DNA of 10,401 nt from a virus (Duplodnaviria; Heunggongvirae; Uroviricota; Caudoviricetes): IMG/VR virus record IMGVR_UViG_2671180770_000023; one strand, written 5' to 3'. Each line of letters opens with the position of its first letter. Positions within the stretch are counted from its first letter, which is position 1. Positions 1,189 to 10,401 of this stretch are shown here, piece by piece. The notes below the pieces were generated by a model that did no database searches, had not been told where the DNA came from, and saw nothing but the letters and a program-made list of their open reading frames with translations. The translations under genes were made by a program, and so were the position numbers.

Positions 1189-1602
1189 TCAGATGGTTTT
1201 CAGTATGCGATCGATGTCGCCGTCATCGCCCTGGTTTCTGCCATCGTATGCCATGCCAGCTGATACGGCTTGCGGGCTGTGCATGTCCATAAAGTTTTCA
1301 AAGGCTGCGGTAAGCTCTGGTGCAACCTTCTGGCGTTCCTGCTCTATGGTCATGCTAAGGATGCTTTTAGCCGTACCAACATCGATACAAGGCACGTTTG
1401 CCATTGCACGCAACAGCGGCTGATAGTCTTTATGCTCATGAAGCGCCATAATCGCATCAGCGCGCGGCTTGTCCTGCTCTTCCAGTTTGTTTAGTTGATA
1501 TACGGCCTCATAGGTTGATAAACCTCTGTCAGCCATTGCCCGCGCTTCGGCTTTAAATTTACTCGCCAGCGGTAGCGTCATGATGCTTTCATTCGTTGCC
1601 AT
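1189..1602 (-). CDS. Hypothetical head-module protein (137 aa), acidic C-terminus
   Basis: Tightly packed after the gpD-like gene. GGGGGA SD 3-4 nt upstream of ATG at 1602. No family recognised; any packaging or connector role is inferred from position only. Confidence 0.6.
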   Translation of the reverse strand: MATNESIMTLPLASKFKAEARAMADRGLSTYEAVYQLNKLEEQDKPRADAIMALHEHKDYQPLLRAMANVPCIDVGTAKSILSMTIEQERQKVAPELTAAFENFMDMHSPQAVSAGMAYDGRNQGDDGDIDRILKTI

Positions 1603-1961: not shown

Positions 1962-3017
1962 TTAACCAATTTTGACGGTAACAAATTTGCGAATATCTGC
2001 CGGTACCGGCTGCGGTGCACTGTGTGTCTGCACGTACTCAATCGCCGGATCTCCGTCCTCAATCCAGTTTTTCGGGTAGTACATGTTTTGCGTTGCCCCC
2101 GTTCTTACTGCGTCCTGATCCATAATCGCACCATAGGCCACCAGCCCTTTATTGTTGGTGTTGCCCAGGACAAGCAAATCAGGCTCAAGGAAATATTTTT
2201 CTCTGCCGTCACTGTCGGCGTATTTGCCGGAATAGACGATAAGGGCAATATCGCCCAGATAGCCTTTAAAGCTCACCACTTCGCCCAGGTTTTTACATGC
2301 CAGCTCTGCGGCGGACTCTGAACCACGGGAAAGATCGTACAGCTCACGGAATTTTTTAAAGCTGCGTAACGTTCGCCATACCTCAGCGCCCATAATCATG
2401 ACGTTGGCGGGGCAACCTGCCTGATCGGCGTATAGTTCGATATCATAGATTGGATCGTGGATTTCTTTGTCCTGCTCTGACCATTTTTTACCGTCGGCCT
2501 GCTCTATGATGTTTTTTTCCGGTATCTTCCAGTCGATTTCATAGCGCTCTATGCCTTCGCCCTCAATGATGTTTTTTCCGGTCGTTACCGCATTTACCGC
2601 CAGCCATTCCACGCGCGCTTTTATGGCGTTTATCTGGCGGCGCATATTGCCAGTAATCAGGCGCATACGGCGATAGGTAGGGTCGTTAAGCTGTGCCGGA
2701 TCTTCTCCAGCCATGCGCATGATGGTTTTCGTTGGATCGATTTCGTGCTTTGGCTTCATGTAGCCAGGTTTGATTGTGCTGGTTTCGTACCCTTTATCGC
2801 GCTGAACCTGGCTACCCACCATAGGCGAACAAAACGCCGACATGGTGACTTCTTCAATGTCCAGGGTATCCAGCATGATGTTTTGCGTGCTGAATGTCGC
2901 CACGTTCGGGAAAAACAGCGTGGTAAACAGCGGACTGAATTTAAATTCCGCAATATCCCCGCGATTCAGGTACGCAAAAAGCTGGTTAGTGTTAAGTGCC
3001 ATTGCTTTTACTGTCAT
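1962..3017 (-). CDS. Major capsid protein, lambda gpE family (351 aa)
   Basis: FKFSPLF..LFFP...TSTIKPGYMKPKHEIDP...DPTYRRMRL...YPKNW...GDPA matches recalled gpE (FKFDPLF..LFF...TSEFTPGYVKPKHEVNP...DPAYRRRRI...YPKNW...GDPA). ATG at 3017 lies 4 nt after a G10 run on the coding strand. Confidence 0.85.
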   Translation of the reverse strand: MTVKAMALNTNQLFAYLNRGDIAEFKFSPLFTTLFFPNVATFSTQNIMLDTLDIEEVTMSAFCSPMVGSQVQRDKGYETSTIKPGYMKPKHEIDPTKTIMRMAGEDPAQLNDPTYRRMRLITGNMRRQINAIKARVEWLAVNAVTTGKNIIEGEGIERYEIDWKIPEKNIIEQADGKKWSEQDKEIHDPIYDIELYADQAGCPANVMIMGAEVWRTLRSFKKFRELYDLSRGSESAAELACKNLGEVVSFKGYLGDIALIVYSGKYADSDGREKYFLEPDLLVLGNTNNKGLVAYGAIMDQDAVRTGATQNMYYPKNWIEDGDPAIEYVQTHSAPQPVPADIRKFVTVKIG

Positions 3018-3226
3018 TATTCCCCCCCCCCGTGAACCTGATTCATACCCAGCGCCGCGCGTAAATAGGCGCGTACCTGCCAGCCTGTTGACGGCTCAAC
3101 CATCGCCAGCGGGTCAAGTCCTGCCGCAATGCCTGCTTTTACGTTCTGCTGGTGGCGTTCCTTGAGCGCCTTCACGATGTCGGGGCTTATGTACACCGAA
3201 ACACCGCCTTTTTTCTCTTCAGCCAT
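3017..3226 (-). CDS. Hypothetical protein (69 aa) ending ...VHGGGE, encoded through the G10 tract
   Basis: ATG at 3226 with AGAGGA SD about 10 nt upstream. Its stop TAA (3019-3017) shares one base with the capsid ATG. No family recognised. Confidence 0.5.
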   Translation of the reverse strand: MAEEKKGGVSVYISPDIVKALKERHQQNVKAGIAAGLDPLAMVEPSTGWQVRAYLRAALGMNQVHGGGE

Positions 3227-3463: not shown

Positions 3464-3874
3464 TCAGAACGGAATATCATCACCGTAGGGGTCATCGTCT
3501 CCCGCTGGTGGCTGATTACCCTGTGTGCCTGTGGTTTTGCGTCTGTTCCCGCCAGGACGTGCCGCACGGGCACTGATTACGCTGTCTGCAATAACCTGAT
3601 AACCCTGCCGCGTTTCCCCGTTCTGTCCGGTCCACTGGCTGACCTGCATCGTGCCGGATACGCTGGCAACGTCGCCTTTTTGATGTTTAGCCAGGAAGTC
3701 GGCCTGCTTACCAAATGCGATGACCGATAGCCATAACGTCGCCTGCCCATCCTGCGCCTGACTACATGGCAACGATACCGCCATACGCGCCAGCGTCATT
3801 GGTGTGCCCTTGCTGGTCTGTTTTACCTGCGGGTCGTCCACTAGCCGCCCGTAAGCGGCTATCTGTGCTGTCAT
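3464..3874 (-). CDS. ssb: Single-stranded DNA-binding protein (136 aa)
   Basis: OB-fold-like N-terminus, Gly/Pro/Gln-rich linker and the canonical acidic tail ...DDDPYGDDIPF. Start ATG overlaps the upstream stop as ATGA (3871-3874). Confidence 0.85.
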   Translation of the reverse strand: MTAQIAAYGRLVDDPQVKQTSKGTPMTLARMAVSLPCSQAQDGQATLWLSVIAFGKQADFLAKHQKGDVASVSGTMQVSQWTGQNGETRQGYQVIADSVISARAARPGGNRRKTTGTQGNQPPAGDDDPYGDDIPF

Positions 3875-4149
3875 GATTCCACCTCTCCGGTTTTAACGTT
3901 GATGGTTGTTACCTGTTCCGCTTCGGCAATCTCCCGCTCTGTCAGCGTGGCAAAATTTGCCGCCGTCGTGGTCATGAATGCGCTTATCAGTTCGGGATGT
4001 GCTTTCGCGTATCCTTCCCCCGCGTGGCGGTCTATCGTTCTGATTGCCACCTTTAAAGCGTGCTCTGTCATGTCTAACGCGCGATATTTCGGTTCTGTTC
4101 TGTCTCTGCGTTTTTTGAGTGATGTATTAAATTTCCCTGAAGTGTGCAT
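3871..4149 (-). CDS. Hypothetical protein (92 aa)
   Basis: ORF immediately downstream of the iteron cluster. GAGGGGG SD about 11 nt upstream of ATG at 4149. Translationally coupled to ssb. No family recognised. Confidence 0.45.
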   Translation of the reverse strand: MHTSGKFNTSLKKRRDRTEPKYRALDMTEHALKVAIRTIDRHAGEGYAKAHPELISAFMTTTAANFATLTEREIAEAEQVTTINVKTGEVES

Positions 4150-4198
4150 ATTTATTTTTACCCCCTCGTTTAAAAAGTTTTGAGTTGTGCCTCCCCTT

Positions 4199-4344
4199 GT
4201 CTACCTTATCTACCTTAGTGGCCCTCATACCAGTAATGGCGCGGCTTTCAGCGGGGTAGAGTGCTTTTATCCAGTATCTACCCCGTGTCTACCTCCCTGT
4301 CTGATTCAGGTAAAATCAGGTAGAGAGGGTAGATAGTGGGTAGA
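4199..4344. repeat. Iteron cluster, putative replication origin
   Basis: Eight copies of a 6-bp core: TCTACC at 4200, 4209, 4277, 4288 and its complement GGTAGA at 4255, 4319, 4328, 4339. Adjacent copies are 9-11 bp apart. AT-rich flanks at 4141-4185 and 4345-4370. Lies directly 3' of the primase gene. Confidence 0.65.
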
Positions 4345-4360
4345 CAGCAATTACAAAAAA

Positions 4361-4855
4361 TTATAAAAACGCGTCGCACTCGTCTGTTGTTATTGCGTTA
4401 GTCTGCGTTACCCCCTTAACTTTCCGCGTAATATATTCATGTCCGTAAACTTTTGCGGCAGGCTTCATAGCCTTGCCAAAGTCATTTACGTTTAGCGGTT
4501 TGCTCCTGCCTGCGTATGCCATAAACGCCAGATAGACGCGGTAAAGGCTGTTCCTGGTCGTGTACTTCACTGAATCGCCACCGCCGCCCATCATCAGGCC
4601 GCGTGCTTCCTCCAGAAAATTCAGGAACTGGCAAAACTCAATAACCGGATCCGTCTGTTGCTTTATTGCCAGAGCTTCATCACCGTCACGCTGTTCCAGT
4701 AGTAAAGCCCGTGCCTTCTCAGGGTCGGTAAAGTTCGCCAGCAATCGGCGGATAATGACAGGGATTTCAGCCGCGATCTTTTCCGGTAGCTCCCTGTCTT
4801 TTTCGGCCTCACTGACGATATTGTCGAAACGGAAAATCACGCGACGACGTGCCAC
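4361..4855 (-). CDS. P4-family primase/helicase, C-terminal segment, out of frame with the upstream segment (164 aa)
   Basis: Begins at a GTG. Sequence (A)RRRVIFRFDNIV...DPVIEFCQFL continues the conserved post-NTPase region expected after ...GVW in this family. Overlaps the upstream ORF by 19 nt in a different frame. Confidence 0.7.
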   Translation of the reverse strand: MARRRVIFRFDNIVSEAEKDRELPEKIAAEIPVIIRRLLANFTDPEKARALLLEQRDGDEALAIKQQTDPVIEFCQFLNFLEEARGLMMGGGGDSVKYTTRNSLYRVYLAFMAYAGRSKPLNVNDFGKAMKPAAKVYGHEYITRKVKGVTQTNAITTDECDAFL

Positions 4856-6108
4856 ACCCCGGCCCGTTCGGTGAATATCATCGGGTTATTGTTGGTCGCC
4901 AGCACCACCGCCCTGATTACAGCCGTGAAACGCTTTTCGTATTTCGGGTTAATTTCCACGGGGTCACCGCCCGTGATTTTCTTGATGCCCGTTCCTTCGC
5001 CTGTATATTTCGGCTGGTCAGCCAGGACGATAAGACGACTCCCGACAACCTGCGCACGTCCACCAGCATCATCAAGCGATGTCATTTCAGCGCTTACCGT
5101 GTTCTGTTTCCCTGCCAGAAGGCTGGCTATGTGCGTGAATGTACTTTTACCGCTCCCGCCGTCTCCGGTGGCCTCAATAAACATCTGCCAGTCGTACCGG
5201 TTCGCCATAATCATGTACAGCGCGGCACATATACGCATCATCTTGCGCGGGTCTTTTCCGGCTGCGTGCTTAAGCCATTTATGAAAGTTTGGCGCGTTAT
5301 CGCGGATGTTCTCCCCTGGTGCTGGTGGCGTGTACTCAATGCCGTTGTGCGTGGTGATCCAGTTCTCCGGCGTGTGCGGGGAAAATTCCCCCGTTTTCAG
5401 GTCAAGCGCACCATTGGCGAACGGCAGCAAATCGCCGGACGGCTCGCCCATTGGTTCGGCAATAACTTTTAACGCTTCCACGGCGTTATTGATTACGCGC
5501 TTGCTGAAAGTGGCCCTGTGCTCTGAATAGATCGCCACCATTTCGCGGCTAAGTTCCATTGTGCTGACCGGACACCATACCCCGCCGCGCCATACGTGAA
5601 CGATTTCACTTTCCTGATGCACACAAACGCCATCAAAGCGCTCGGCAAGCAGCTGCGCGCGCTCACTGTCTGCCATTTGTGCCAGTTGCGTATTTTTCTG
5701 CTCCGGCATGGTAAGCCCTGCGGCAATATTTTCACGCTCAGCATTCAGATAGCGCCGCCAGTTTTCACACTTCTGGACGTGCATTCCTTCGTGGTAAAAA
5801 TTTGCGTCCTGAATATCTGCCGCCGCCAGCTTCTGACCAATCTTTTTGGTCTCCACCAAATCCAGTTCTCCGGCCTGGTACAGCCTTACGCGTTTTTTTC
5901 CATCCGGAACAATTTTCAGTGCATCAAGTTCGGCAAGCTGATTTGGCCCAAGCCACACAGGCGGCACATTATCGCCGGATGCGGGGCCGTCCTGCTCCTG
6001 CCACTGTTTTGCATGTGCCCACGCATCACTACCCGCGAAAATAATTACCTCTGTGTCTTTGTGTTTTATTCCGCGTGGTTGTTTTTTTACGTTCGGTGCC
6101 AGTTTCAT
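4837..6108 (-). CDS. P4-family (D5-like) primase/helicase, N-terminal domain plus P-loop NTPase segment (423 aa)
   Basis: Walker A GDGGSGKST, Walker B-like RLIVLAD and KKITGGDPVEINPKYEKRF motif typical of the phage/plasmid primase P4-family C-terminal domain. AGGGG SD 6 nt upstream. ATG overlaps the upstream stop as ATGA. Confidence 0.8.
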   Translation of the reverse strand: MKLAPNVKKQPRGIKHKDTEVIIFAGSDAWAHAKQWQEQDGPASGDNVPPVWLGPNQLAELDALKIVPDGKKRVRLYQAGELDLVETKKIGQKLAAADIQDANFYHEGMHVQKCENWRRYLNAERENIAAGLTMPEQKNTQLAQMADSERAQLLAERFDGVCVHQESEIVHVWRGGVWCPVSTMELSREMVAIYSEHRATFSKRVINNAVEALKVIAEPMGEPSGDLLPFANGALDLKTGEFSPHTPENWITTHNGIEYTPPAPGENIRDNAPNFHKWLKHAAGKDPRKMMRICAALYMIMANRYDWQMFIEATGDGGSGKSTFTHIASLLAGKQNTVSAEMTSLDDAGGRAQVVGSRLIVLADQPKYTGEGTGIKKITGGDPVEINPKYEKRFTAVIRAVVLATNNNPMIFTERAGVWHVVA

Positions 6109-7080: not shown

Positions 7081-7244
7081 AAGCCTACCCCCTGACGAAT
7101 ACGGGCGACAAAAATCAGATGTGCGTGCGGCAGCTGGGCGCGGGCTTCGCGTTCTGTTGCTGCCGTGACGGTAAAGAGTGATGTTTGTTTTTCCTGGCAC
7201 TGCATAAAGCGCCAGACAAAGTAAGGGCGTGCGGATACAGCCAT
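7077..7244 (-). CDS. Icd-like / Ash-family-like small protein, copy 1 (55 aa)
   Basis: Motif VWRF...TEREAR...FVARIRQG. TAGGAGCC SD 8 nt upstream of ATG at 7244. Family call is from recalled motif, not a search. The frame stays open upstream to 7580 (see findings). Confidence 0.5.
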   Translation of the reverse strand: MAVSARPYFVWRFMQCQEKQTSLFTVTAATEREARAQLPHAHLIFVARIRQGVGL

Positions 7245-7530
7245 GTGAAAGGCTCCTACAGTAATTTTAAGGAGTCTCGCTACTACGCTGCTAAACGGGG
7301 TGGCGAGACGTAACAGGGTTAGCAGACTGGCACTGTAGGAACCAGCGAGCGCAAAGGCTCCCCCGTTACGCCCCGCCATAATGCGGGTATGGGTAGGCTT
7401 ACGGACACAAAAAAACCGCATATCGGAATATAAGCGGCTGTCCGCTACAGTATTCAGGCTGCTAAACCCGGTCGCCATGTGGGCGACGGGGGAAGCATAC
7501 AGCCCCGTTATAATTTTTTGCAAGCGGTTT

Positions 7531-7728
7531 TTACGCATGATGTGACCCCTGACGAATACGGGCGGCGAATACAGCAACACAACCGGACGGGCAACGGCTA
7601 CGCGCTTCGCGTTCCGTCCAGGCGGTTACGTGGATGATTTGAGATTCTCCGGCACTCAGTGCCAGAAAACGCCACACAAAGGCCGTTTGTGTGTGTACAA
7701 GGTGTGGTATATGATTTACAGCAACCAT
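7531..7728 (-). CDS. Icd-like / Ash-family-like small protein, copy 2 (65 aa)
   Basis: Motif VWRF...TEREAR...FAARIRQG, paralogous to copy 1. CTAGGAGCC SD 5 nt upstream of ATG at 7728. Confidence 0.5.
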   Translation of the reverse strand: MVAVNHIPHLVHTQTAFVWRFLALSAGESQIIHVTAWTEREARSRCPSGCVAVFAARIRQGSHHA

Positions 7729-7897: not shown

Positions 7898-8077
7898 ATG
7901 GCAACAAAAGCAGTTAATGCAAAATCCAAAAAGCTTGAGGCTCGAGTACCTCACGCAATAGCTGATGCTGTAGAAAATTTAAAGGAAGATGGCGAAAGTA
8001 CAGGGCAATTTATCGTTTCGGCACTTGAAGGCGAGATCAAACGCCGCCAGCGCCGCAAGGCCAAAGAATCAGAATAA
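7898..8077 (+). CDS. Small DNA-binding protein, probable ribbon-helix-helix (Arc/CopG-like) regulator (59 aa)
   Basis: Internal ATG with GAGGA SD 9 nt upstream, preferred over the SD-less start at 7769. KLEARVPHAIADAVENLKEDGESTGQFIVSALE fits a strand-helix-helix pattern. Basic C-terminal tail. Confidence 0.55.
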   Translation: MATKAVNAKSKKLEARVPHAIADAVENLKEDGESTGQFIVSALEGEIKRRQRRKAKESE

Positions 8078-8134
8078 TCACTATCAGCGCCGTGGTGTGA
8101 GGTATTACGGCGCATTGCTATGCAGGACAACACA

Positions 8135-8308
8135 ATGACTGATAAAGAATTGACCAAAACATTATCACCGGCACGGAAAAGACGGCGCAGAAAGATAGAG
8201 CATGAATCAGAAAGATTCGCGCCATGTGCTTTTGCCCTTGAGCAATTCCTTAAAGAGTATAGGGAAAAGCGCTCATTGCAGGTATGGCAACGAACTGAAC
8301 CAGACTGA
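8135..8308 (+). CDS. Hypothetical small basic protein (57 aa)
   Basis: Second ATG chosen because AGGA lies 7 nt upstream. Contains an RKRRRRK stretch. Followed by a terminator at 8404-8430. Confidence 0.45.
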   Translation: MTDKELTKTLSPARKRRRRKIEHESERFAPCAFALEQFLKEYREKRSLQVWQRTEPD

Positions 8309-8403
8309 TTGCATTGCCCACCAGCCTGATAGCGGCTATCATCCCCGTGCTTATGTTTGGGATCACATACACATAAGGCGCAGCGGGTTAATTGTTCAGA
8401 AAG

Positions 8404-8430
8404 GCGGCTCCATATCGGGGCCGCTTTTTT
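8404..8430 (+). terminator. Rho-independent terminator closing the plus-strand gene pair
   Basis: GCGGCTCC (8404-8411) pairs with GGGGCCGC (8417-8424), one G-U pair, 5-nt loop, then T6 (8425-8430). Confidence 0.65.
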
Positions 8431-8456
8431 CGTGTTTGTCATATCTGTGATACCCG

Positions 8457-8663
8457 TTAAGCAGCCGTTCCGCGTGCTTCCTGTTCGCGTTCTTTCTGCC
8501 AGGCCAACACATCATCCTCATACCATCCGCGACGGCGTAAACCAACGCGAAAACCCTGCGGAAATTCTCCGGCGTTGATCATGCTTTGCAGCGTGCTGTC
8601 TGCCTTGCTGTGGATAATTTTTTTTACTTCCTGGCGAAAGATAATTTTTCTGATTGCTTCCAT
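8457..8663 (-). CDS. alpA: AlpA-family phage regulatory protein (68 aa)
   Basis: STLQSMINAGEFPQGFRVGLRRRGWYEDDVLAWQKER matches the AlpA / prophage CP4-57 regulator pattern (recalled AlpA: ATIYDWLNPKSPRYDATFPKKRMLGVKSVGWIEAEIDEWLSQR). AAGG 8 nt upstream of ATG at 8663. Confidence 0.8.
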   Translation of the reverse strand: MEAIRKIIFRQEVKKIIHSKADSTLQSMINAGEFPQGFRVGLRRRGWYEDDVLAWQKEREQEARGTAA

Positions 8664-9159: not shown

Positions 9160-10401
9160 CTACACGGCTCGGATACCCCTTTTACCACTGGCGAGGGTTA
9201 CGCCCGTCGCCGCAGCCTCGACAAATTCGCCCCACCAGCGCATCAGCACGATGCGTTTTTCTATGTAGTTGCTCCGGTTGTATGCCCGTCTAACTTCGTT
9301 GGTGTCGACGTGGGCAAGTGCCGCCTCTATTACGTCCGGCTCGAATCCTTCCTCGTTCGCTGCTGTGCTGAATATGGCGCGTAATCCATGAGACACCAGC
9401 ACGCCAGCGAATCCCATACGCCGCAATGCTGCGTTAGCTGTCTGGCTGTTCATCGGCTGCTGTGGGTCTTTCAGACTTGGGAAAACGTAATTGCGGTGGT
9501 GGCTGATTGGTTTCATGGCCTCCAGCACCGCCATAGCCTGACCGGAAAGCGGGATAACGTGATCCCTGCGCATCTTCATGCGTCCGGCAGGTATCGTCCA
9601 TTGCTTCGCGTCCAGGTTGATTTCATCCCACCGCGTTGATGACGCTTCGGCGGGACGGGTTACGGTCAGTAACTGCCATTCAATCAGTAATCTGGTCTGC
9701 CGTTCTGTTGCCGATACTGATAAAGCCTGCATAAGCTCCGGCAGCTGTTCGGGGCGGATTGTTGGCATATGTTTTTTTACAGGTGAGGGAAACGCCTTAC
9801 GCACATTCATAGCCGGATTGGCATCAATCAGCCCACTGTTGGCGGCGTAATCCATTACCTCATTAACGCGCTGTAAAACCCGCTTGAGTGTTTCCAGGTT
9901 GCCGCGCTCCTTGATGGGGGTAAGCACTTCAACGAACCTTCGGGCGGTGAGGGTATCTATTGGCGTGTTGCCGATGAACGGGAATACATATTTATCCAGC
10001 GAACGCCAGATGTCTTTAATCGTGTTGGGGGCCAGATTCTGGCTGATTTTCACCTGGTACCATGCCGCCGCCACATTTTCGAACGTGTTCCCTTGTCTTC
10101 GGGCCTCTGTCTCTCTTTTTTGCCTCTCGTGGTCCTGCGGGTCAGTTCCGGCACTGATTAACGTCCTGTACTCGCTACGGCGTTTTCTGGCATCAGCCAG
10201 GGAAACATCTTCAAGCGATCCAAAACTCAGCAATATTCTTTTTTTGTCCGATGGTCGGTAGTAGGAAAATCTCCAGAGTTTTGATCCAGACGGTTTGACC
10301 AGGAGAAAAAGCCCTCCGCCGTCCTGCAGGGTGTACTCCTTTTGCGCTGGTCTGGCTGCTTTGATCTGCACTGTGGTTAATGGGTGTGTTTTTCTCGCCA
10401 T
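9160..10401 (-). CDS. int: Tyrosine recombinase, P4-type integrase (413 aa)
   Basis: N-terminal arm-binding-like region (GGGLFLLVKPSGSKLWRFSYY...) typical of P4-like integrases. Catalytic H-x-x-R (HGLRAIF) and C-terminal Tyr region (RAYNRSNYIEKR). ATG is the last three bases of the window. Confidence 0.9.
   Translation of the reverse strand: MARKTHPLTTVQIKAARPAQKEYTLQDGGGLFLLVKPSGSKLWRFSYYRPSDKKRILLSFGSLEDVSLADARKRRSEYRTLISAGTDPQDHERQKRETEARRQGNTFENVAAAWYQVKISQNLAPNTIKDIWRSLDKYVFPFIGNTPIDTLTARRFVEVLTPIKERGNLETLKRVLQRVNEVMDYAANSGLIDANPAMNVRKAFPSPVKKHMPTIRPEQLPELMQALSVSATERQTRLLIEWQLLTVTRPAEASSTRWDEINLDAKQWTIPAGRMKMRRDHVIPLSGQAMAVLEAMKPISHHRNYVFPSLKDPQQPMNSQTANAALRRMGFAGVLVSHGLRAIFSTAANEEGFEPDVIEAALAHVDTNEVRRAYNRSNYIEKRIVLMRWWGEFVEAAATGVTLASGKRGIRAV

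What the first reader, a model, noticed from the sequence alone, without database searches (positions are those of the whole stretch)
4837..4855. P4-family primase/helicase is split by a frameshift at the conserved GVW|RRR junction
The upstream ORF ends ...TERAGVWHVVA-stop. The next ORF, in another frame, begins (V)ARRRVIFRFDNIV.... Joined, these give ...GVW(A)RRRVIFRF..., the contiguous motif expected after the NTPase core in this family. A single missing base next to the GG of the Trp codon would restore a full-length protein of about 587 aa. No obvious slippery heptamer is present, so this looks like a mutation or a sequencing error rather than programmed frameshifting. If real, the replicase may be inactive or expressed as a separate NTPase and a C-terminal DNA-binding fragment.
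Basis: partly seen in the sequence, partly recalled or inferred. Interest (0 to 1): 0.55.

Follow-up and report, generated by a model that had tools for sequence, protein, structure and literature searches.

The report
Frameshift-broken replication gene in phage satellite
A real, inherited one-base deletion has split the replication-initiator helicase gene of a phage-satellite island in one E. coli clone and almost certainly inactivated it; this is an ordinary pseudogene, not a recoding signal.

Summary
The two overlapping minus-strand ORFs are there as described: 6108..4837 (423 aa) and 4855..4361. They are halves of one gene. Hundreds of E. coli genomes carry a single 582-aa "DNA primase family protein" at this locus. 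The window lacks one base, the A of GCC-GGA-GGT-GTG-GCA (AGGVARRR), between window 4859 and 4858. "VWHVVA*" is an out-of-frame tail, so the native motif is ERAGGVARRRVIFRF, not GVW|RRR. The repaired protein is 582 aa and 100% identical to a widespread intact allele. The deletion is real: an independent assembly (GCA_012595785.1) and a Logan re-assembly of run ERR134545 both carry it. No complete E. coli genome does. There is no slippery heptamer, long homopolymer or downstream RNA structure, and no natural two-gene relatives were found. The break lies inside the SF3 ATPase domain. It comes after Walker A, Walker B and motif C, and just before an RRR triplet as conserved as the Walker lysine. 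It also removes the P4-alpha-type origin-binding winged helix. A milder truncation kills the closest solved homologue, SaPI5 PriRep5. The host element is a PICI-type satellite. In this clone its origin has also lost a 77-nt AT-rich core, and sister islands carry other independent knock-outs. Verdict: genuine loss-of-function mutation, low novelty.

The parts
4837..6108 (-). ORF1: 417 native residues of the initiator-helicase, then a 6-residue out-of-frame tail and a stop. Contains an N-terminal domain of unknown function (about 1-135), D5_N (151-280) and most of the SF3 ATPase core (DUF5906, 314-408).
4858..4859 (-). Site of the lesion. One A is missing between these two bases: GCC GGA GGT GTG in relatives becomes GCC GGG GTG TGG here.
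   Evidence: alignment A1; pairwise differences
4837..4857 (-). Out-of-frame tail VWHVVA (4857..4840) and the premature TGA (4839..4837).
4361..4855 (-). ORF2 reading frame, equal to native residues 419-582 (VARRRVIFRF...DAFL). The possible starts, GTG 4855 and GTG 4840 (GTGA overlap with the ORF1 stop), have no good Shine-Dalgarno sequence.
5143..5166 (-). Walker A, GDGGSGKS (residues 315-322). K321 is conserved in 99 of 101 family sequences.
5014..5037 (-). Walker B region, RLIVLADQ (358-365). D364 is conserved in 85 of 101.
4888..4908 (-). Motif C / sensor-1, VVLATNN (401-407). N407 is conserved in 98 of 101. It is the last catalytic motif still in ORF1.
4841..4849 (-). RRR codons (native R421-R423), the inferred arginine finger. 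They are now out of frame with the ATPase core. Conservation is 96, 97 and 91 of 101.
   Evidence: The assignment as arginine finger is an inference from spacing after motif C.
4379..4654 (-). C-terminal winged-helix domain, homologous to the origin-binding domain of P4 alpha (PDB 1KA8) and to Pfam Pox_D5.
4198..4346 (.). Putative replication origin. All 8 TCTACC/GGTAGA hexamers of the window sit here, immediately 3' of the gene. This is a short variant that lacks 77 nt found in most relatives.

Best explanation
A genuine, vertically inherited single-base deletion (loss of the A in GGAGG, codon G417/G418) has turned the island's 582-aa replication initiator-helicase gene into a pseudogene. The protein belongs to the P4-alpha/D5 family and has the architecture D5_N, SF3 ATPase, C-terminal origin-binding winged helix. 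Translation now ends after 417 native residues plus VWHVVA. The product keeps Walker A, Walker B and motif C. It loses the invariant RRR (inferred arginine finger), the last part of the ATPase fold, the connecting helix and the origin-binding domain. It should therefore neither hydrolyse ATP, nor unwind DNA, nor recognise the iterons just downstream. The satellite island should no longer replicate autonomously after induction. Shown here: the lesion, its inheritance, its position in the domain, and the conservation of what is lost. Inferred: loss of activity and of island replication.
For: One missing base against intact 1749-nt genes. The repaired protein is 100% identical to P0016, which is indexed in 82 blocks of the collection; 24 contigs were read. 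TIGR01613 is contiguous across the break, and neither fragment alone reaches the cut-off: 80.4 and 16.2 bits against 108.7. None of 347 complete E. coli genomes holding this 101-nt stretch has the deletion. The deletion is present in the source assembly GCA_001277695.1, in a Logan re-assembly of ERR134545 that is identical over 3138 nt, and in the independent assembly GCA_012595785.1. That assembly shares the window's two private SNPs and differs by 1 SNP in 9086 nt. Against its six nearest relatives the window has no other private indel. R421, R422 and R423 are conserved in 96, 97 and 91 of 101 diverse family members, comparable to K321 (99) and N407 (98). The break aligns to about residue 626-627 of SaPI5 PriRep5 (7OLA), inside its ATPase domain (468-659). 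PriRep5 lacking only residues 676-790 already loses ori binding, ATPase, helicase and in vivo replication (PMC9371898). A rep deletion abolishes the EcCICFT073 PICI replicon (PMC6092414).
Against: No raw reads were examined and no expression or replication data exist for this allele. The two NCBI assemblies could in principle be the same strain sequenced twice, although that would still be independent sequencing. The arginine-finger assignment rests on conservation and spacing, not on a structure of this protein. A second compatible initiator elsewhere in the genome could complement in trans; this was not checked because the genome is not available here.
Confidence: 0.85

Rival explanations
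1. Sequencing or assembly artefact: the real genome has the A and an intact gene.
For: Only a few assemblies carry the deletion and reads were not inspected. The closest islands differ from the window by only 3-7 SNPs, so a single error would be enough.
Against: The deletion is reproduced by a different assembler on run ERR134545. It is also present in an independent NCBI assembly, GCA_012595785.1, which shares the window's private SNPs and adds one of its own. The lost base is a lone A between GG and GG, not a homopolymer-length miscall. There is no other private indel in 10.4 kb.
Confidence: 0.03
2. Programmed recoding: -1 ribosomal frameshifting or transcriptional slippage restores a full-length protein.
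For: The two frames overlap for 49 nt (4885..4837), so a -1 shift in that stretch would give a near-native protein.
Against: The overlap holds no X XXY YYZ heptamer and no A or T run. Its only run is GGGG, where a perfect re-pairing shifts +1, which is the wrong frame and stops within a few codons. The downstream RNA folds no better than shuffled sequence (z = +0.72). The arrangement is not conserved. Every relative examined is in one frame, and the identical protein is encoded uninterrupted elsewhere.
Confidence: 0.02
3. Functional split: ORF1 and ORF2 are both made and either reassemble or act separately, for example a truncated hexamer as a dominant-negative and a free origin-binding fragment as a repressor of the origin.
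For: ORF2 has GTG starts, one of them in a GTGA stop-start overlap that could allow re-initiation. PriRep5-deltaCTD still forms hexamers. The ORF2 protein sequence is still identical to the intact allele.
Against: The cut is inside the ATPase domain and separates motif C from the invariant RRR, so it is not at a domain boundary. There is no Shine-Dalgarno sequence at a workable spacing and no promoter on this strand. The split is private to one recent lineage, so ORF2 being unchanged reflects youth rather than selection. No natural two-gene relatives were found. Short database proteins that start near residue 410 are fragments called from the internal Met410 or carry frameshift junk.
Confidence: 0.05

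Closest known systems
Bacteriophage/satellite P4 gp-alpha (primase, helicase and origin-binding protein); NCBIfam TIGR01613 'phage/plasmid primase, P4 family, C-terminal domain'
   Same: The D5_N, SF3 ATPase (DUF5906) and Pox_D5 architecture is shared. The C-terminal winged helix matches the solved P4 alpha origin-binding domain 1KA8 (E = 7e-7). The intact allele passes the TIGR01613 cut-off (109.2 against 108.7 bits). P4-alpha-like representatives align at 43-50% identity from residue about 124-140 to the end. Short iterons lie next to the gene; from memory, the P4 octamer is TGTTCACC, compared with TRTCTACC here.
   Different: There is no Zn-ribbon or Toprim primase domain. P0139 and P0151 have one and this protein does not. 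Residues 1-135 are instead a domain with no Pfam or PDB match. The gene sits in a PICI-type island, not in a P4-like satellite. In the window the gene is broken.
SaPI5 PriRep5 self-loading initiator-helicase (PDB 7OLA/7OM0; Qiao et al. 2022, PMC9371898)
   Same: It is the closest solved structure (E = 3e-15). The GG-x-x-RR motif aligns: ERAGGVARRR against DKTGGTLRR. Both are satellite-encoded SF3 helicases with a C-terminal winged helix that reads origin iterons. The experimental CTD truncation is dead, which models the consequence here.
   Different: The match is distant and covers only query residues 186-430. PriRep5 is from a Gram-positive host and has a different N-terminal primase domain. 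The natural truncation here is deeper, inside the ATPase domain.
Gram-negative PICI replicon, for example EcCICFT073 pri-rep-ori (Fillol-Salom et al. 2018, PMC6092414)
   Same: The island runs from int to a regulator to pri/rep, with an iteron origin immediately 3' of the initiator gene. It is transcribed in one direction, is about 10-12 kb, and sits at a tRNA gene. Rep is required for replicon function.
   Different: This island also carries lambda-type E (major capsid), D (decoration) and Nu1-like terS homologues. Induction and transfer were not tested. Its origin is a 77-nt-deleted variant.

Membership tests
P4-family primase C-terminal domain (TIGR01613) | Whole-protein score above the curated cut-off of 108.7 bits | tested here: met
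   The intact allele (L001 protein) scores 109.2 bits, only marginally above the cut-off. The window fragments score 80.4 and 16.2 bits, so each fails alone, but together they tile profile positions 2-193 and 192-266.
P4 gp-alpha-type primase-helicase | N-terminal Zn-ribbon plus Toprim primase domain | tested here: not met
   Pfam finds Zn_Ribbon_Prim and Toprim_3 in relatives P0139 and P0151 but nothing in residues 1-150 of this protein. A PDB sequence search of residues 1-187 gives only noise. A structure-based search was not done.
P4 gp-alpha-type primase-helicase | C-terminal origin-binding winged helix | tested here: met
   Residues 486-577 match 1KA8 with E = 7e-7. Pfam Pox_D5 also matches. 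In the window this domain lies in ORF2.
SF3 (AAA+) helicase | Walker A, Walker B, motif C (sensor-1 Asn) and a following arginine finger in one polypeptide | tested here: not met
In the window the RRR is in a different frame from the other three. The gene is a member by descent, but the encoded ORF1 product lacks a defining motif.
Phage-inducible chromosomal island (Gram-negative PICI) | int at one end, AlpA-like regulator, pri/rep followed by an iteron origin, one transcription direction, small size, specific att site | tested here: met
   int is at 9160-10401. An excisionase/regulator-like HTH protein is at 8457-8663 (phrog_66). The initiator and its iterons at 4198-4346 follow. All genes but one are on the minus strand. 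The island lies beside tRNA-Pro(GGG) and yejM.
Phage-inducible chromosomal island (Gram-negative PICI) | Induction, replication and high-frequency transfer by a helper phage | not testable with these tools
   This needs experiments.
Programmed -1 ribosomal frameshift site | Slippery heptamer in the overlap, downstream stimulatory structure, and conservation of the two-frame arrangement | tested here: not met
   No heptamer in the 49-nt overlap. Downstream fold z = +0.72. Relatives are in one frame.

The most novel reading that the evidence does not exclude
The frameshift may not be an isolated accident. It could be one step in the erosion, or selected immobilisation, of a satellite island that is now inherited vertically in one E. 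coli clone. All five distinct islands fetched here that share a 77-nt deletion of the origin's AT-rich core carry a different further lesion. The window and GCA_012595785.1 carry the primase frameshift, and GCA_012595785.1 also has a start-codon loss. Another island has int Q89*. Another has a capsid frameshift. Another has a 438-nt deletion. Five long-origin islands with the identical primase allele have int, primase and capsid intact wherever those genes lie within the fetched stretch. If the origin deletion came first and abolished replication, this clade would be a natural time series of satellite decay or domestication.
Probability: 0.3. Interest if true: 0.35.

Novelty: already known. 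Interest (0 to 1): 0.13.

Why it matters
It matters little beyond annotation. The two ORFs should be annotated as one pseudogene (GenBank currently gives ORF1 a protein record, CTS64386.1). The island should be scored as probably replication-defective in satellite surveys. The result is a clean example of telling a real inherited frameshift from an assembly error or a recoding site using public assemblies alone. The clade-level pattern of an origin core deletion plus independent knock-outs could be a small natural model for how phage satellites decay once they are immobilised.

Tried and rejected
1. Programmed -1 frameshifting or transcriptional slippage. Rejected: no heptamer, no A/T run, no downstream structure, not conserved.
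2. Natural two-gene system. Rejected: intact single genes everywhere.
3. Other 'partial' members of the 90% cluster (P0002-P0015) as further frameshift alleles. They are contig-edge fragments with native ends.
4. The 159-aa C-terminal fragment called as its own gene elsewhere. L007 is a metagenome scaffold with a duplication of about 100 nt and an intact site. L008 is a contig edge.
5. An exact-pattern scan of GTDB species genomes for the deleted site found nothing. Scans of IMG/VR and JGI metagenomes for the short-origin junction also found nothing.
6. A look-up of the K9T 92-aa protein to count further carriers found only the source genome.
7. A PDB sequence search of the N-terminal 187 residues gave only noise.
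8. Literature searches for ERR134545 and for the P4 iteron octamer found nothing useful. One search call was rejected for a too-short term.
9. Structure prediction was not run. The only sequences admissible to that tool were 98% or more identical, and the verdict does not depend on it.

Full report
**Observation.** The genes in this window run on the minus strand. ORF1 (6108..4837, 423 aa) ends ...PMIFTERAGVWHVVA*. ORF2 (4855..4361, GTG start) begins VARRRVIFRFDNIV.... They overlap by 19 nt in different frames. Pfam finds D5_N and DUF5906 in ORF1 and Pox_D5 in ORF2. NCBIfam TIGR01613 ('phage/plasmid primase, P4 family') tiles across the junction: ORF1 227-419 matches profile 2-193 and ORF2 1-75 matches profile 192-266.

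**The lesion.** A megablast of 4361-6108 against 5,426 complete E. coli genomes finds the locus in 722 of them, with 485 covering at least 80%. The listed hits span 1749 nt against 1748 nt in the window and are annotated as one CDS, mostly 'DNA primase family protein'. The alignment shows one missing base. Relatives read GCC GGA GGT GTG GCA CGT (A-G-G-V-A-R) and the window reads GCC GG- GGT GTG. The lost A lies between window 4859 and 4858.

- The native motif is ...FTERAGGVARRRVIFRF....
- The intact protein is 582 aa.
- The window sequence with the base restored is 100% identical to P0016, an intact protein indexed in 82 blocks of the public collection.

**What the gene is.** The closest solved relatives are the SaPI5 initiator-helicase PriRep5 (7OLA, E = 3e-15, query 186-430) and the origin-binding winged helix of P4 alpha (1KA8, E = 7e-7, query 486-577). 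A search of 1.84 billion cluster representatives returns 2,137 relatives at E <= 1e-10. Long ones of 770-830 aa align only from about residue 124-140 onward. They carry Zn_Ribbon_Prim plus Toprim_3 in front, as expected of P4-alpha-type primase-helicases. The window's protein has no such domain. Its first 135 or so residues match nothing in Pfam or the PDB. It is thus a P4-alpha/D5-family SF3 helicase with an origin-binding C-terminal domain. 'Primase' is a family name here, not a demonstrated domain.

**Where the cut falls.** ORF1 retains three catalytic motifs:

- Walker A, GDGGSGKS (315-322)
- the Walker B region, RLIVLADQ (358-365)
- motif C, VVLATNN (401-407)

The next conserved element, R421-R422-R423, is in ORF2. 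In an alignment of P0016 with 100 diverse representatives of 440 aa or more, these arginines are conserved in 96, 97 and 91 of 101 sequences. That is the same level as the Walker lysine (99) and the motif C asparagine (98). All long representatives are contiguous across the site.

The spacing of 14-16 residues after the sensor-1 Asn is what I recall for the arginine finger of SF3 helicases such as papillomavirus E1. That comparison is from memory and the assignment is an inference.

The site aligns to chain position about 626-627 of PriRep5. This is inside the ATPase domain (468-659) and well before the CTD (676-790). The deposited chain is 797 residues against 790 in the paper, so numbering may shift by a few residues. 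Experimentally, PriRep5 lacking only residues 676-790 still forms hexamers but loses ori binding, ATPase, helicase and in vivo replication (PMC9371898). Deleting rep abolishes the EcCICFT073 PICI replicon (PMC6092414). The 423-aa product is therefore predicted to be dead. This step is an inference.

**Mutation or artefact.** The window is part of GCA_001277695.1, contig CYAV01000012.1.

- A Logan re-assembly of run ERR134545 is identical over 3138 nt, including the deletion.
- Against its six nearest relatives the window has only three private states in 10.4 kb: the deletion, a K9T change at 4124, and a synonymous change at 3800. There is no other private indel.
- An independent NCBI assembly, GCA_012595785.1 (L017), carries the same deletion and both private SNPs. 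It differs by one further SNP in 9,086 nt, an ATG-to-ATT change in the start codon of the 92-aa ORF at 4147. No protein is on record there for the primase stretch, which explains why the exact-protein look-up missed it.

The deletion is therefore heritable and real. It is also rare: none of 347 complete genomes with this 101-nt stretch has it, and one GTDB-wide exact scan found nothing.

**Not recoding, not a natural split.** Restoring the frame needs a -1 shift within a 49-nt overlap (4885..4837).

- The overlap has no X XXY YYZ heptamer and no A or T run. Its only run is GGGG, where perfect re-pairing would shift +1, into the wrong frame.
- The downstream RNA is no more structured than shuffled sequence (z = +0.72).
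- No promoter-like site lies on this strand.
- The two candidate GTG starts of ORF2 lack a usable Shine-Dalgarno sequence. The GTGA stop-start overlap could at most allow weak re-initiation.
- Short database proteins starting near residue 410 are fragments called from the internal Met410 or contain frameshift junk.
- Other 'partial' cluster members are contig-edge pieces.

**Context.** The element is a PICI-type satellite beside tRNA-Pro(GGG) and yejM. Its gene order, with supporting, is:

- int
- an AlpA/excisionase-like HTH protein
- Icd-like and repressor-like small ORFs
- a DUF4222 protein
- the initiator-helicase
- the origin
- a 92-aa ORF
- SSB
- a 69-aa ORF
- a lambda E-like major capsid protein
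- a D-like decoration protein
- a 137-aa protein
- a Nu1-like TerS

All eight TCTACC/GGTAGA hexamers of the window lie in 4198-4346, immediately 3' of the gene (8 observed against 2.4 expected). This matches the PICI origin layout described in PMC6092414.

Most relatives have a 288-nt origin with 11 hexamers around a 39-nt core that is 77% AT. The window, L011, L012, L016 and L017 lack 77 nt between CTGTCTACCC repeats. The deletion removes that core and three hexamers. The short junction is absent from complete E. coli genomes.

Four of these five short-origin islands (window, L012, L016, L017) share an identical chromosomal flank. The flank of L011 did not match exactly and was not compared further. 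Each short-origin island carries a further, different lesion:

- primase frameshift (window and L017, with L017 also losing the ORF92 start codon)
- int Q89* (L011)
- capsid A6-to-A5 frameshift (L012)
- a 438-nt deletion (L016)

Five long-origin islands with the same primase allele have these genes intact wherever they lie within the fetched stretch. This suggests erosion of an already immobilised island. However, the sample is small, and the look-up tool preferentially displays places whose neighbouring proteins differ, so broken islands are over-shown.

**Comparison and verdict.** This is a frameshift pseudogene of a well-known family in a well-known kind of element. The question it left open, mutation or sequencing error, is resolved in favour of a genuine mutation. 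Interest is low. The only mildly interesting extension is the clade-wide decay pattern.

Noticed in passing
window 4198-4346 (origin); compare L009 8250-8537: The iteron origin 3' of the initiator gene is a rare short variant. A 77-nt deletion between CTGTCTACCC repeats removes a 39-nt core that is 77% AT, plus 3 of 11 hexamers. The variant is shared by L011, L012, L016 and L017. It is absent from 5,426 complete E. coli genomes, IMG/VR and JGI metagenomes.
   Followed up: partly
window 3022-3031 (minus-strand G10, directly 5' of the capsid ATG at 3017): This is a length-variable poly-G tract: G10 in the window, L012, L016 and L017; G7 in L007, L011 and L015; G8 in L009, L013 and L014; G5TG in L010. 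With G8 the 69-aa ORF is fused in frame to the major capsid protein, giving a 420-aa product. With G7 or G10 it stops at a TAA that overlaps the ATG. It could be a hypermutable or phase-variable tract, or sequencing noise at a homopolymer.
   Followed up: partly
L011 (= window 10137), L012 (= window about 2484-2489), L016 (= window 7108-7545), L017 (= window 4147): Sister islands in the same clone carry other independent lesions: int Q89* (L011), a capsid A6-to-A5 frameshift with a stop at codon 207 (L012), a 438-nt deletion between GCCCGTATTCGTCAGGGG repeats that removes the 153-aa ORF (L016), and an ATG-to-ATT start loss of the 92-aa ORF (L017).
   Followed up: partly
window 5704-6108 (minus strand; residues 1-135 of the initiator): This N-terminal domain has no Pfam or PDB match. 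It takes the place of the Zn-ribbon/Toprim primase domain of P4-alpha-like relatives and is shared with relatives of about 580-620 aa (for example P0136). Its function is unknown.
   Followed up: partly
window 1189-1602 (minus strand, 137 aa): This small protein lies between the decoration-protein and terS genes. It matches only the C-terminal part (positions 495-567 of 583) of a head-maturation-protease PHROG. It may be a scaffold-like remnant analogous to lambda Nu3.
   Followed up: no
window 7951-8442 (minus strand, 163 aa) and 7898-8077 (plus strand, 59 aa): A long ORF with no PHROG hit overlaps the only plus-strand gene (YlcI/YnfO family) on the opposite strand. RefSeq marks the corresponding stretch in relatives as an incomplete BRO-N or icd-like pseudogene.
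   Followed up: no
P0245 (431 aa, 27% identical family member): This unrelated family member ends ...LIFTDRNGGD, at the same GG as the break in the window. It could be an independent truncation at the G-rich GG codons or merely a contig-edge fragment. No DNA was available to check.
   Followed up: no
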